DNA of 32,091 bases from a virus (taxonomy: Duplodnaviria > Heunggongvirae > Uroviricota > Caudoviricetes): positions 1 through 32,091 of the IMG/VR virus record IMGVR_UViG_2609459797_000004; one strand, written 5' to 3'. The position numbers and the translations under genes are program-made. A model generated the notes under the pieces. The model saw only the letters and a program-made list of their open reading frames with translations, did no database searches and had not been told where the DNA came from. Every line of letters begins with the position of its first letter. Position 1 is the first letter of the stretch. This document shows positions 22,537 to 25,647 of this stretch, in pieces.

Positions 22537-22629
22537 TATGCGTGGAAACGCATATGGCCTTAGTTGGTCAGATATCTTGGGGCTCGCTTTGTCAGCGACG
22601 TAGGACGAATGTCCATTGTGAAAAGAGCG
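22537..22629 (-). promoter_or_regulatory. nutR-like region: boxA-like CGCTCTTTT, boxB-like hairpin and tR1-position hairpin
   Basis: Minus-strand CGCTCTTTT (22621..22629), hairpin TCGCT-GACAA-AGCGA (22584..22598) and hairpin TATGCGT-TTCC-ACGCATA (22537..22554), all between cro and cII. Confidence 0.45.
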
Positions 22630-22636
22630 GTGTTAC

Positions 22637-22837
22637 TTATGCAGTTGTTTTTTTGTTACTTGGGAAGGGCTTTATTTCTTCCGCATAAACGCTTCCATCA
22701 GCGTTTATAGTTAAAAAAATCTTTCGGCCTGCATGAATGGCCTTGTTAATCGCGCTTTGATATACGCCGAGATCTTTAGCCGTCTTGGTTTGCCCAAAGC
22801 GTATTGCATAATCTTTCAGGGTTATGCGTTGTTCCAT
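22637..22837 (-). CDS. cro: Cro repressor, lambda type (66 aa)
   Basis: [66 protein letters not shown] differs from remembered lambda Cro at two positions. Confidence 0.92.
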
Positions 22838-22863
22838 ACAACCTCCTTAGTACAGGCAACCAT

Positions 22864-22927
22864 TATCACCGCTAGAGGTAAAATAGTCAACACGCACGGT
22901 GTTAGAAGTTTATCCCTTGCGGTGATA
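22864..22927. promoter_or_regulatory. Right operator OR1-OR2-OR3 with divergent PR/PRM, lambda type
   Basis: Three 17-bp sites: TATCACCGCTAGAGGTA (OR1), CAACACGCACGGTGTTA (OR2), TATCCCTTGCGGTGATA (OR3); lie between the cro and cI starts. Confidence 0.8.
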
Positions 22928-22934
22928 GATTTAA

Positions 22935-23651
<717 letters not shown>

Positions 23652-23682
23652 TTGTTTTATTTTTCACGTAATAGGATGATTT

Positions 23683-24024
23683 ATGACACAATTTCAACTT
23701 GCATTAATCGCTAGAGAAGTTGATGGAGAAGTCATCCATCTTCGCACCAAAGACGGATACATCAATGCCACCGCGATGTGCAAGTCTGCGGGGAAGCTAC
23801 TTGCTGACTATACACGACTAAAAACAACACAAGATTTTTTTGATGAATTATCACGCGATATGGGGATTCCCATATCGGAGTTAATTCAATCATTTAAAGG
23901 CGGAAGAGCAGAGAATCAAGGGACTTGGGTTCATCCAGACATCGCAATTAATTTAGCTCAGTGGCTATCTCCAAAATTTGCAGTGCAAGTATCGAGATGG
24001 GTGCGTGAGTGGATGTCAGGTTAA
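23683..24024 (+). CDS. KilA-N (APSES-like) domain protein, 113 aa, at the rex position
   Basis: AGGATGA ribosome-binding site; signature GYINATAMCKSAGK...DYTRLKTTQDF...GTWVHPDIAINLAQWLSPKF typical of KilA-N domains; co-oriented with cI. Confidence 0.7.
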   Translation: MTQFQLALIAREVDGEVIHLRTKDGYINATAMCKSAGKLLADYTRLKTTQDFFDELSRDMGIPISELIQSFKGGRAENQGTWVHPDIAINLAQWLSPKFAVQVSRWVREWMSG

Positions 24025-24063
24025 AGAGCGCCTGCCGAACTCCCTATCCACCTTAAGCGGTAT

Positions 24064-24442
24064 ATGACAAACCGAGGCAGAGTTCCTCATACGCACTTTT
24101 CTATGCTTAATGAACTGACGTTTAACTTGGTTGCGCCACTTGAACAGGCCGGATATACGCTGCCAGAAAAAATGGTCCCTGATATTTCAGAGGGTAGGGT
24201 TTTCTCGCAATGGCTCCGTGACAACCGGGGGGTTGAGCCGAAGACATTCCCAACATATAACCATGAGTACCCAGATGGCCGGACATTCCCGGTACGTCTA
24301 TACCCAAACGAATATTGCAGATTTCAAACAATACTTCAACGAAGTGTGGCTGCCTCAGTACGCTCCTAAATATTTTGCTGAACGAGACCAAAGGGCATTG
24401 ACGTTGATTGAGAAAATCATGCTACCTGACCTTGATTCCTAA
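24064..24442 (+). pseudogene. Interrupted coding region downstream of the KilA-N ORF (same frame to 24369, +1 frame to 24442)
   Basis: Frame-1 ORF 24064..24369 is separated from the KilA-N ORF by a single TAA. The protein-like C-terminal stretch that runs to the terminator is in the +1 frame (track ORF 24131..24442). May be a decayed gene or separate genes. Confidence 0.4.
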
Positions 24443-24450
24443 ATGTTATT

Positions 24451-24477
24451 CCCGGCCACAGAGCCGGGTTTTCTTTG
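24451..24477 (+). terminator. Intrinsic terminator after the cI-operon cargo
   Basis: CCCGGC-CACAGA-GCCGGG hairpin followed by TTTTCTTTG, 9 nt after the 24442 stop. Confidence 0.6.
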
Positions 24478-24628
24478 CCTCACGATCCCCCTCACCCAAG
24501 AACACATAACCAATTGTATCTATTTGAAAATAAATAGATACAACTCACTAAACATAGCAGTTCAGATCTCTCACCTACCAAACAATGCACCCCTGCAAAA
24601 AATAAATTCATATAAAAAACATACAGAT

Positions 24629-24690
24629 AACCATCTGCGGTGATGAATTATCTCTAGCGGTGTTGACATAAATACCACTGGCGGTGATAC
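24629..24690 (+). promoter_or_regulatory. Left operator OL3-OL2-OL1 with PL promoter, lambda type
   Basis: AACCATCTGCGGTGATG (OL3), TATCTCTAGCGGTGTTG (OL2), TACCACTGGCGGTGATA (OL1); -35 TTGACA at 24663..24668 and -10 GATACT at 24685..24690, directed toward the N gene. Confidence 0.8.
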
Positions 24691-24759
24691 TAAACACATC
24701 AGCAGGACGCACTACTCACCAGGGCGGTGAATATACAACGATTCGAATATGAATCTACG

Positions 24760-24774
24760 GCGCTGACAAAGCGC
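24760..24774 (+). promoter_or_regulatory. nutL boxB-like hairpin (P22-type GACAA loop)
   Basis: GCGCT-GACAA-AGCGC, about 75 nt downstream of the PL -10 and about 260 nt upstream of the N start. Confidence 0.5.
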
Positions 24775-25035
24775 AATAACCAAAGTGAACTTTGGGGTGT
24801 GGTGAAGCCAGCTAGTCACTGGCAAGTGCTTACCTACTGTTGAGCGGTGAAGCGCTCCCAACGCTAGCAATAGCGTGGACGAGATGGGGAGCCGCGGGCG
24901 ATAAGGCCGCCATAACGCGCACGTTGTCGCATGGAAAAATCACTGGGGTGCCGGTTATACCCCTCCGAATGAGACTCAACAAGCTGGAGCTAGACTACCA
25001 GCCACCACACCACCAAAGTTCATCAGGAGGTCTAT

Positions 25036-25419
25036 ATGACACGCAGAACTCAGTTCAAAGGCAATTCACGTTCTCGTCGTCGTGAGCGTTTAAAGGCAAA
25101 GGCATTAGCTAACGGCGTACTGGCCCGCGAAGAAGCAATAAGTTCAGAAGTATTACACCGCCCTACTCTAAGCAGAGCGCAGATTCAGGCTAAAGGTACT
25201 CACGAAACGCCTGAGCGCAAAGAAGACGCTAAGCCAATTAAGTTCATGGCACAGGACGTGATCTGGCAACAGAAAGAATACAGACGCAATCTGGAGCGAG
25301 CGGCCATTGTGTACGCGAATGAGTTTGGACATAAGCAACCAGAAACTGGTGTATGTCTTCCAAACGTAGCCATTTACGCGGCAGGCTACCGGAAATCAAA
25401 ACAACTGACAGCGAGGTAA
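25036..25419 (+). CDS. N-type transcription antiterminator, P22 gene 24-like (127 aa)
   Basis: N-terminal arginine-rich motif (RSRRRERLKAKALA); C-terminus CLPNVAIYAAGYRKSKQLTAR matches the remembered P22 gp24 C-terminus; GGAGG ribosome-binding site. Confidence 0.75.
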   Translation: MTRRTQFKGNSRSRRRERLKAKALANGVLAREEAISSEVLHRPTLSRAQIQAKGTHETPERKEDAKPIKFMAQDVIWQQKEYRRNLERAAIVYANEFGHKQPETGVCLPNVAIYAAGYRKSKQLTAR

Positions 25420-25422
25420 GTG

Positions 25423-25647
25423 ATGAATCAGACATACATTCCATCATGCTTGAGAAATCTGCCAAAGCAGAAAGCAAAGCCCCGCAAGCAAGCCATAAAG
25501 GACGCTAAGGCAGAGGTTATTGATCAAGCAATACAATTGCTCAGGGAGGAGTTAAGAAGTGGCAAGCTCGAAGGAATGATGATTCCCTATCAGCGCGGAT
25601 ATCTATCGGCGATTAGTAAGTTGGAAGTATTGAAGAGTGAATTATGA
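25423..25647 (+). CDS. Hypothetical early protein (74 aa)
   Basis: ATG 4 nt after the N stop; basic and helical; track ORF starts at the GTG at 25420. Confidence 0.4.
   Translation: MNQTYIPSCLRNLPKQKAKPRKQAIKDAKAEVIDQAIQLLREELRSGKLEGMMIPYQRGYLSAISKLEVLKSEL

What the first reader, a model, noticed from the sequence alone, without database searches (positions are those of the whole stretch)
22864..22880. Same single-base change in OR1 and OL2 relative to remembered lambda operators
OR1 reads TACCTCTAGCGGTGATA and OL2 (24649..24665) reads TATCTCTAGCGGTGTTG. Both have A where I recall canonical lambda having G (CTCTGGCGG), at the equivalent half-site position. The reference sequences are from memory, so this needs confirmation. 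Operator substitutions could change repressor affinity and immunity specificity.
Basis: partly seen in the sequence, partly recalled or inferred. Interest (0 to 1): 0.35.

Follow-up and report, generated by a model that had tools for sequence, protein, structure and literature searches.

The report
Common natural variants of lambda operators
Two lambda-type repressor binding sites in this E. coli prophage each differ from textbook lambda by the same one base, but these are common natural variants also found in wild phages that share lambda's immunity, so the finding is ordinary.

Summary
Compared with the lambda reference J02459, OR1 (22864-22880, minus strand) reads TACCTCTAGCGGTGATA and OL2 (24649-24665) reads TATCTCTAGCGGTGTTG. 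Each has A instead of G at position 8 of the 17-bp site, in the half-site that matches the consensus less well.

The interpretation, a possible change of immunity specificity, is not supported.
- OR1-8A occurs in HK97, mEp234, HK244, HK542, CL707, mEp332 and PhiR5_2, in 56 of 80 IMG/VR contigs, and in 178 complete E. coli genomes (G: 385).
- OL2-8A occurs in mEp332, in 9 of 58 IMG/VR contigs, and in at least 22 complete genomes (G: 553).
- The same G/A polymorphism also occurs in OL1.
- mEp332 has A at all three sites, and a paper reports that it shares lambda's immunity group.
- CI differs from lambda CI at four residues and Cro at two. None lies in a recognition helix.

Position 8 of this half-site is almost the only variable operator position in the family. 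A 76%-identical outgroup has T, A and C there. The mirror position in the consensus half is invariant and is where the lambda vir mutation v3 (38007) lies.

Best reading: a near-neutral, weakly constrained operator position. A small effect on affinity is untested. The variants are already in published sequences, and interest is low.

The parts
22637..22837 (-). cro gene (66 aa); differs from lambda Cro by M12I and V55I
   Evidence: ORF list; Pfam Cro PF09048, E=8e-34; comparison with lambda
22864..22880 (-). OR1, TACCTCTAGCGGTGATA; the position-8 G to A variant is base 22873 (lambda 38005), at -18 in the spacer of the PR promoter
   Evidence: positions relative to PR taken from the operator and promoter annotation of EF120460
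22888..22904 (-). OR2, identical to lambda (TAACACCGTGCGTGTTG)
22911..22927 (-). OR3, identical to lambda (TATCACCGCAAGGGATA)
22903..22908 (+). PRM -35 hexamer, TAGAAG here versus TAGATA in lambda (changes at 22907 and 22908)
   Evidence: hexamer position from the EF120460 annotation; the variant is shared by 11-12 of 80 related loci
22938..23651 (+). cI repressor gene (237 aa); differs from lambda CI by T2A, K70N, R128K and S156Y
   Evidence: Pfam HTH_3 and Peptidase_S24
23683..24442 (+). KilA-N-domain gene in the place of rexA/rexB. It is disrupted here by a stop codon at 24022-24024 and a 2-bp deletion between 24314 and 24315, relative to the intact 253-aa gene of phage PhiR5_2
24629..24645 (+). 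OL3, AACCATCTGCGGTGATG in this orientation; the outermost base (24645) is G where lambda has A
24649..24665 (+). OL2, TATCTCTAGCGGTGTTG; the position-8 G to A variant is base 24656 (lambda 35624), at about -42 relative to the PL start
   Evidence: position relative to PL from the EF120460 annotation
24673..24689 (+). OL1, identical to lambda (TACCACTGGCGGTGATA); other family members have A at position 8 here too
25036..25419 (+). N antiterminator gene (127 aa, not the lambda N allele), transcribed from PL

Best explanation
The window holds a lambda-type immunity module (cro, OR1-3, cI, a broken KilA-N gene in place of rexAB, OL3-1, then N) inside a P22-like mosaic prophage of E. coli. The two G to A differences are standing natural alleles at position 8 of the weaker-matching ('non-consensus') half of the CTGGCGG-type operators OR1, OL1 and OL2. 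This is the least constrained base pair of the lambda operator. CI recognises the two half-sites asymmetrically. Its N-terminal arm is ordered only on the consensus half, where the mirror position 8' is invariant and is the site of the virulence mutation v3. The monomer on the other half makes fewer contacts near the centre of the site. The switch therefore works as in lambda: CI dimers bind OR1/OR2 and OL1/OL2 cooperatively to shut PR and PL and to activate PRM, and Cro binds the same sites. Immunity specificity is that of lambda, and at most there is a small shift in intrinsic affinity at OR1 and OL2. What is shown: the sequence identity of the variants, their frequency, the pattern of constraint, and the lambda immunity of phages that carry them. 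What is inferred: that the effect on affinity is small, and that asymmetric contacts are the reason.
For: The reference comparison confirms the variants. OR1-8A is shared with PhiR5_2, mEp234, HK97, HK244, HK542, mEp332 and CL707, and OL2-8A with mEp332. In IMG/VR, OR1 is A in 56 and G in 24 contigs, OL2 is A in 9 and G in 49, and OL1 is A in 18 and G in 40, with all combinations present. The cI-derived set gives the same picture. In complete E. coli genomes, OR1-G is in 385 and OR1-A in 178, OL2-G in 553 and OL2-A in at least 22. Operators are otherwise almost invariant while spacers vary: 4 of 102 versus 20 of 106 polymorphic positions, p=8e-4. Outgroup L225 (cI 76% identical) has T (OR1), A (OL1) and C (OL2) at this position, while the consensus-half GCGGTG core of those three operators is unchanged. 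mEp234 and mEp332 share lambda's immunity group (PMC3442831). Lambda vir v3 is at 38007, position 8 of the consensus half (PMC3349717), and that position is invariant in every OR1, OL1 and OL2 sampled. In structure 1LMB, the N-terminal arm on the non-consensus half has no coordinates (PMC2194778). CI differs from lambda only at T2A, K70N, R128K and S156Y, and Cro only at M12I and V55I. The identical module occurs in at least two complete E. coli chromosomes.
Against: No binding or immunity measurement exists for this exact haplotype (OR1-8A, OL2-8A, OL3 outer base G, PRM -35 TAGAAG, and CI with T2A/K70N/R128K/S156Y). A is absent from position 8 in all 12 half-sites of lambda itself, so some cost in affinity is plausible. 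I could not retrieve the Sarai-Takeda values or the Degnan et al. 2007 text. The frequency samples are affected by clonal sampling and differ in which OR1 allele is the majority (IMG/VR: A; RefSeq complete genomes: G). The module's KilA-N gene is broken, so this copy may belong to a decaying prophage.
Confidence: 0.85

Rival explanations
1. The substitutions change operator specificity, so this phage belongs to a new immunity group that is heteroimmune to lambda.
For: They are real changes inside repressor binding sites at equivalent positions, and CI also carries a change (T2A) in its DNA-binding N-terminal arm.
Against: mEp332 carries A at OR1, OL1 and OL2 plus T2A and is in lambda's immunity group, as is mEp234. 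The Degnan et al. phages, deposited as having lambda immunity specificity, mostly carry OR1-8A. The recognition helices of CI and Cro are unchanged, and 99 of 102 operator positions are identical to lambda. The link between T2A and OR1-8A is explained by their being about 65 bp apart, and Thr2 alleles occur with A at OL1 or OL2.
Confidence: 0.03
2. They are partial operator-constitutive (virulence-type) mutations like those of lambda vir, weakening CI binding so that the phage escapes repression.
For: Lambda vir carries point mutations in OL, OR2 and OR1, and the OR1 mutation v3 is also at a 'position 8'.
Against: v3 is at 38007 in the consensus half and v1 is at 37979. The window's changes are at 38005 and 35624, in the other half-site. 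The alleles sit in resident chromosomal prophages in hundreds of genomes, which is incompatible with loss of repression. The consensus-half position is invariant.
Confidence: 0.03
3. The position-8 alleles are functional tuning variants kept by selection. They would shift CI or Cro occupancy at the three strong operators and so shift prophage stability or the induction set-point.
For: The frequencies are intermediate at three paralogous sites, in both IMG/VR and RefSeq genomes, and all allele combinations occur. The operators are otherwise under strong purifying selection.
Against: The outgroup shows T, A and C at this position, which fits relaxed constraint better than a two-state optimum. 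There is no association with other features beyond physical linkage, and there are no functional data.
Confidence: 0.08
4. The recurrence reflects a mutational or repair bias, not tolerance. The A allele creates CTAG, and very-short-patch (Vsr) repair would convert CTAG to CCAG/CTGG at all three sites.
For: The A alleles create the rare tetranucleotide CTAG (18 observed in the window versus about 125 expected), and CTAG/CCAG polymorphisms also occur at three sites within cI.
Against: The three cI sites are third-codon-position transitions, which are common anyway, and the direction is inconsistent because lambda itself carries CTAG at one of them. The outgroup has T and C at the operator position, which this mechanism does not predict.
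Confidence: 0.03
5. They are sequencing errors or private decay mutations of a defective prophage.
For: The adjacent KilA-N gene carries a stop codon and a 2-bp deletion.
Against: The same bases are found in many independent phage isolates, contigs and complete genomes.
Confidence: 0.01

Closest known systems
Bacteriophage lambda OR/OL operators and the CI/Cro switch (J02459)
   Same: Same architecture with no insertions or deletions: three 17-bp sites at each of OR and OL, and the same PR, PRM and PL layout. 99 of 102 operator bases are identical. CI is identical at 233 of 237 residues and Cro at 64 of 66.
   Different: G to A at position 8 of OR1 and OL2, and a different outer base in OL3. 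The PRM -35 is TAGAAG, not TAGATA, and the PR +1 base is C, not A. rexAB is replaced by a broken KilA-N gene, the N allele differs, and the backbone is P22-like.
Wild phages with lambda immunity specificity (Degnan et al. 2007 records EF120455-EF120461: HK544, mEp332, HK244, HK542, CL707, mEp234, HK106) and HK97
   Same: Same immunity module with non-rex genes between cI and OL. OR1-8A is present in mEp234, HK97, HK244, HK542, CL707 and mEp332. OL2-8A is present in mEp332. T2A in CI is the usual wild allele.
   Different: No single named phage has exactly this combination (OR1-8A, OL1-8G, OL2-8A, OL3 outer base G), but 12 IMG/VR loci in the cI-derived set and 5 in the pattern-derived set do, and two complete E. 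coli chromosomes match the module at 99.9-100%.
Escherichia phage PhiR5_2 (PV340546.1)
   Same: It is the closest deposited phage over cro to OL: 97.6% identity over 2.2 kb. It has the same KilA-N gene in place of rexAB, the OR1-8A allele and the same Cro allele.
   Different: PhiR5_2 has G at OL2 position 8 and A at the OL3 outer base, an intact 253-aa KilA-N gene, and a CI without S156Y.
Lambda vir operator mutations v1 (37979, OR2) and v3 (38007, OR1)
   Same: Single-base changes inside CI/Cro operators; v3 also affects a 'position 8' base pair of OR1.
   Different: v3 lies in the consensus half-site, which is invariant in nature, and lets the phage grow on lysogens. The window's change is the mirror position in the non-consensus half and is carried by stable prophages.

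Membership tests
Lambda immunity group (imm-lambda CI/Cro/operator module) | CI repressor of the lambda type (HTH DNA-binding domain plus S24 autocleavage domain) with lambda's DNA-recognition residues | tested here: met
   Pfam HTH_3 and Peptidase_S24. The only differences from lambda CI are T2A, K70N, R128K and S156Y, none in the helix-turn-helix. T2A is the common wild allele.
Lambda immunity group (imm-lambda CI/Cro/operator module) | Lambda-type Cro | tested here: met
   Pfam Cro PF09048, E=8e-34. The only differences from lambda Cro are M12I and V55I.
Lambda immunity group (imm-lambda CI/Cro/operator module) | Tripartite OR and OL made of 17-bp sites with lambda's sequences and spacing, overlapping PR/PRM and PL | tested here: met
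   Gapless alignment to J02459. 99 of 102 operator bases are identical and the spacing is the same.
Lambda immunity group (imm-lambda CI/Cro/operator module) | Reciprocal cross-immunity with lambda in vivo | not testable with these tools
   There is proxy evidence only. mEp332 (A at OR1, OL1 and OL2) and mEp234 (A at OR1) are reported to share lambda's immunity group (PMC3442831).
Lambda vir-type operator-constitutive (virulence) mutations | The base change lies at an operator position where mutation is known to relieve CI repression (v1 at 37979, v3 at 38007) | tested here: not met
   The window's changes correspond to lambda 38005 and 35624. v1 and v3 are at 37979 and 38007.
Lambda vir-type operator-constitutive (virulence) mutations | The phage cannot be repressed and grows on lambda lysogens | not testable with these tools
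   Indirect evidence is against it. The alleles are carried by resident chromosomal prophages in 178 (OR1-A) and at least 22 (OL2-A) complete E. coli genomes.

The most novel reading that the evidence does not exclude
The G/A alleles at position 8 of OR1, OL1 and OL2 are not neutral. They would be small-effect 'tuning knobs', possibly acting together with residue 2 of CI's N-terminal arm (Thr, Ala or Ile), and kept at intermediate frequency because they set different CI occupancies, and so different prophage induction thresholds, in different hosts or niches.
Probability: 0.08. Interest if true: 0.4.

Novelty: already known. Interest (0 to 1): 0.1.

Why it matters
It matters little for discovery. 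The variants are already present in published and annotated phage sequences (HK97 and the 2007 set of wild lambda-immunity phages) and do not define a new immunity type. There is some modest value. Laboratory lambda is only one of two common OR1 alleles in nature. Natural variation also singles out one base pair per strong operator (position 8 of the non-consensus half) as tolerant, and its mirror base as untouchable. That is an evolutionary echo of the known asymmetric recognition of lambda operators by CI. It also gives a ready-made set of natural alleles for anyone who wants to measure how robust the lambda switch is to small changes in operator affinity.

Tried and rejected
(1) I tried to read Degnan et al. 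2007 by DOI and PubMed id, Sarai and Takeda 1989 (PMC297874) and Benson et al. 1988 (PMC1203262). None is held, so I give no numerical ddG for G8>A.
(2) I looked for the per-position values in papers that reuse the Sarai-Takeda matrix (PMC2194778, PMC5481185, PMC11796464). They appear only as figures.
(3) I looked for expression data on residue 32 (lambda 38005) in the eLife PR mutant library. Only a G>T double mutant exists, and the row order of the data file does not match the mutant list, so I dropped it.
(4) The VSP-repair/CTAG hotspot idea is not supported.
(5) Co-variation between CI arm residue 2 and OR1 position 8 is explained by physical linkage and does not hold at OL.
(6) My first cI comparison was in the wrong reading frame. 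I discarded its protein columns and redid them. The operator haplotype counts are unaffected.
(7) I searched for a literature statement that HK97 is homoimmune with lambda and found none in the held library.

Full report
WHAT IS IN THE WINDOW. Positions 22600-25450 hold a lambda-type immunity region, read in the opposite orientation to the conventional lambda map. In order it contains:
- cro (22637-22837, minus strand);
- OR1 (22864-22880), OR2 (22888-22904) and OR3 (22911-22927);
- cI (22938-23651, plus strand);
- a KilA-N-domain gene where lambda has rexA/rexB (23683-24442);
- OL3 (24629-24645), OL2 (24649-24665) and OL1 (24673-24689);
- an N antiterminator gene (25036-25419).
The rest of the window is a P22-like (Sf6, HK620, vB_EcoP-611R6-type) phage genome. 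The immunity module alone is 100% identical to a chromosomal prophage segment of E. coli strain 1008S19 and 99.9% identical to one in strain EC2641, though the flanks in 1008S19 are different.

CHECK OF THE OBSERVATION. I fetched the real lambda reference, J02459, whose annotation marks operator-r1 at 37998-38014 and operator-l2 at 35615-35631.
- Lambda OR1 is TACCTCTGGCGGTGATA. The window has TACCTCTAGCGGTGATA.
- Lambda OL2 is TATCTCTGGCGGTGTTG. The window has TATCTCTAGCGGTGTTG.
Both changes are G to A at position 8 of the 17-bp site. The variant bases are window 22873 (lambda 38005) and window 24656 (lambda 35624).

The window differs from lambda at 6 of 105 bases across OR and at 4 of 100 across OL. 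Only three of these ten differences lie inside operators: the two above and the outermost base of OL3.

THESE ARE COMMON NATURAL ALLELES.
- Named phages. OR1-8A is present in PhiR5_2, mEp234, HK97, HK244, HK542, mEp332 and CL707. Lambda, HK544, SfI and ev099 have G. OL2-8A is present in mEp332. The same G/A difference occurs at position 8 of OL1 in mEp332, ev099 and SfI.
- IMG/VR, less biased sample. I retrieved 80 contigs with a degenerate OR1-OR2 pattern (117 matched, 80 were kept). OR1 is A in 56 and G in 24. OL2 is A in 9 and G in 49. OL1 is A in 18 and G in 40. All allele combinations occur.
- IMG/VR, cI-based sample. A set of 80 loci found through cI, and therefore biased toward this window's cI allele, gives the same picture.
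- Complete RefSeq E. coli genomes (5,426). I used allele-specific 55-mers in which every possible 28-base seed must cover the variant base. OR1-G is in 385 genomes and OR1-A in 178. OL2-G is in 553 genomes and OL2-A in at least 22.
Laboratory lambda's G at OR1 is therefore just one of two common alleles. OL2-8A is a minority allele, but a well-established one. Which OR1 allele is the majority depends on the sample, and both samples are affected by clonal over-representation.

IMMUNITY SPECIFICITY. [quoted passage not shown] I could not read that paper itself. [quoted passage not shown] The substitutions seen in this window are therefore compatible with lambda immunity.

The proteins agree with this. 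The window's CI differs from lambda CI only at T2A, K70N, R128K and S156Y, and its Cro only at M12I and V55I. Neither protein has a change in its recognition helix.

T2A lies in the N-terminal arm of CI and is the usual wild allele. In the less biased sample it is strongly associated with OR1-8A: 55 A and 11 G for Ala2, against 1 A and 13 G for Thr2. The two sites are only about 65 bp apart, however. Thr2 alleles also occur together with A at OL1 or OL2. Physical linkage is therefore enough to explain the association.

WHY THE SAME POSITION IN SEVERAL OPERATORS. Only four of the 102 operator positions have a minor-allele frequency above 5%: position 8 of OR1, of OL1 and of OL2, and the outer base of OL3. 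In the spacers and flanks, 20 of 106 positions pass that threshold (Fisher p=8e-4). The chance that three of four variable operator positions fall in one paralogous class is 4.6e-4, or about 0.008 after correcting for 17 classes.

A genuine outgroup points the same way. This is a prophage in Enterobacteriaceae bacterium G50 whose CI is 76% identical. Its operators are recognisably homologous, and at this position it has T in OR1 (TACCTCCTGCGGTGATA), A in OL1 (TACCACTAGCGGTGATT) and C in OL2 (TATCTCTCGCGGTGTTG). The GCGGTG core of the consensus half is unchanged in those three operators. Across the family this base pair therefore takes all four values.

The mirror position in the consensus half behaves in the opposite way. 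It is invariant in every OR1, OL1 and OL2 sampled. In OR1 it is lambda 38007, the site of the classical lambda vir mutation v3 (PMC3349717).

This contrast fits the known asymmetric recognition of lambda operators. In the 1.8 A CI-OL1 structure 1LMB, the N-terminal arm of the monomer on the non-consensus half has no coordinates (PMC2194778). From my own recollection, not checked here, the arm on the consensus half contacts the central base pairs, and Sarai and Takeda (1989) measured smaller penalties for substitutions in the non-consensus half.

With respect to the promoters, the OR1 variant lies at -18 in the PR spacer, and the OL2 variant lies at about -42, upstream of the PL -35 hexamer (positions taken from the EF120460 annotation). 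I infer from these positions that a strong effect on either promoter is unlikely.

ALTERNATIVES CONSIDERED.
- A repair-bias explanation. The A allele creates the rare tetranucleotide CTAG, which very-short-patch repair would convert to CCAG/CTGG. CTAG/CCAG polymorphisms do occur at three sites in cI, but all three are third-codon-position transitions, and lambda itself carries CTAG at one of them. The outgroup's T and C are not predicted by this mechanism. I consider it unsupported.
- Virulence-type mutations. These are excluded by position and by the fact that the alleles reside in stable prophages.
- Sequencing error or private decay. This is excluded by recurrence in many independent sequences.
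- Adaptive tuning of operator affinity. This cannot be excluded without measurements and is my 'novel case', at a probability of about 0.08.

VERDICT. The suggested functional consequence, altered immunity specificity, is not supported. The feature is a pair of common natural alleles, already present in published sequences, at the most weakly constrained position of the lambda operator. Novelty: already known. Interest: low (0.1).

Noticed in passing
window 23683-24442: The KilA-N-domain gene that replaces rexA/rexB is intact in phage PhiR5_2 (253 aa) but broken here by a GAA to TAA stop codon at 24022-24024 and a 2-bp deletion between 24314 and 24315. The same truncated form occurs in E. coli 1008S19, where RefSeq annotates it as a 113-aa protein.
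   Followed up: partly
window 22903-22908: The PRM -35 hexamer reads TAGAAG where lambda has TAGATA (changes at 22907 and 22908), a poorer match to the consensus. 11-12 of 80 related loci share this. The effect on CI autoregulation is unknown.
   Followed up: no
window 22855, 22935, 22937: The PR transcription start base is C where lambda has A (22855, transcribed strand). The two bases at -3 and -1 before the leaderless cI start codon also differ from lambda. All are common variants in the family.
   Followed up: no
window 24645: The outermost base of OL3 differs from lambda (GATA to GATG in the window's orientation, which is position 1 of the consensus half). It is strongly linked to the OL2-8A allele 11 bp away.
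   Followed up: partly
window 22941-22943 (cI codon 3, mature residue 2): Residue 2 of the CI N-terminal arm is Ala here and in most wild relatives, Thr in laboratory lambda, HK544 and SfI, and Ile in the 76%-identical outgroup. The arm residue next to the critical lysines is therefore variable.
   Followed up: partly
loci L209-L224, L226, L228, L233 and others (genome-contig scan): cI genes 97-98% identical to this window's cI (consistent with lambda's own allele) turn up in assemblies of unrelated taxa such as Shewanella, Chromatium, Kitasatospora, Capnocytophaga, Pseudomonas, Paenibacillus and Bradyrhizobium. Several are on contigs of about 48.5 kb at roughly 1x coverage, which most likely means laboratory lambda DNA contaminated those assemblies. 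I did not check the individual loci base by base.
   Followed up: no
whole window: The window is a mosaic: a P22-like (Sf6/HK620-type) structural and replication backbone combined with a lambda immunity module and a non-lambda N. CTAG is strongly under-represented (18 observed, about 125 expected from base composition), and two of the 18 lie in OR1 and OL2.
   Followed up: partly
locus L250 320-1017 (E. coli 1008S19, NZ_CP147050.1): In the genome with the identical immunity module, an IS1A element sits just beyond cII and the N gene is annotated as incomplete. That copy therefore belongs to a degraded prophage with different flanks from the window.
   Followed up: no
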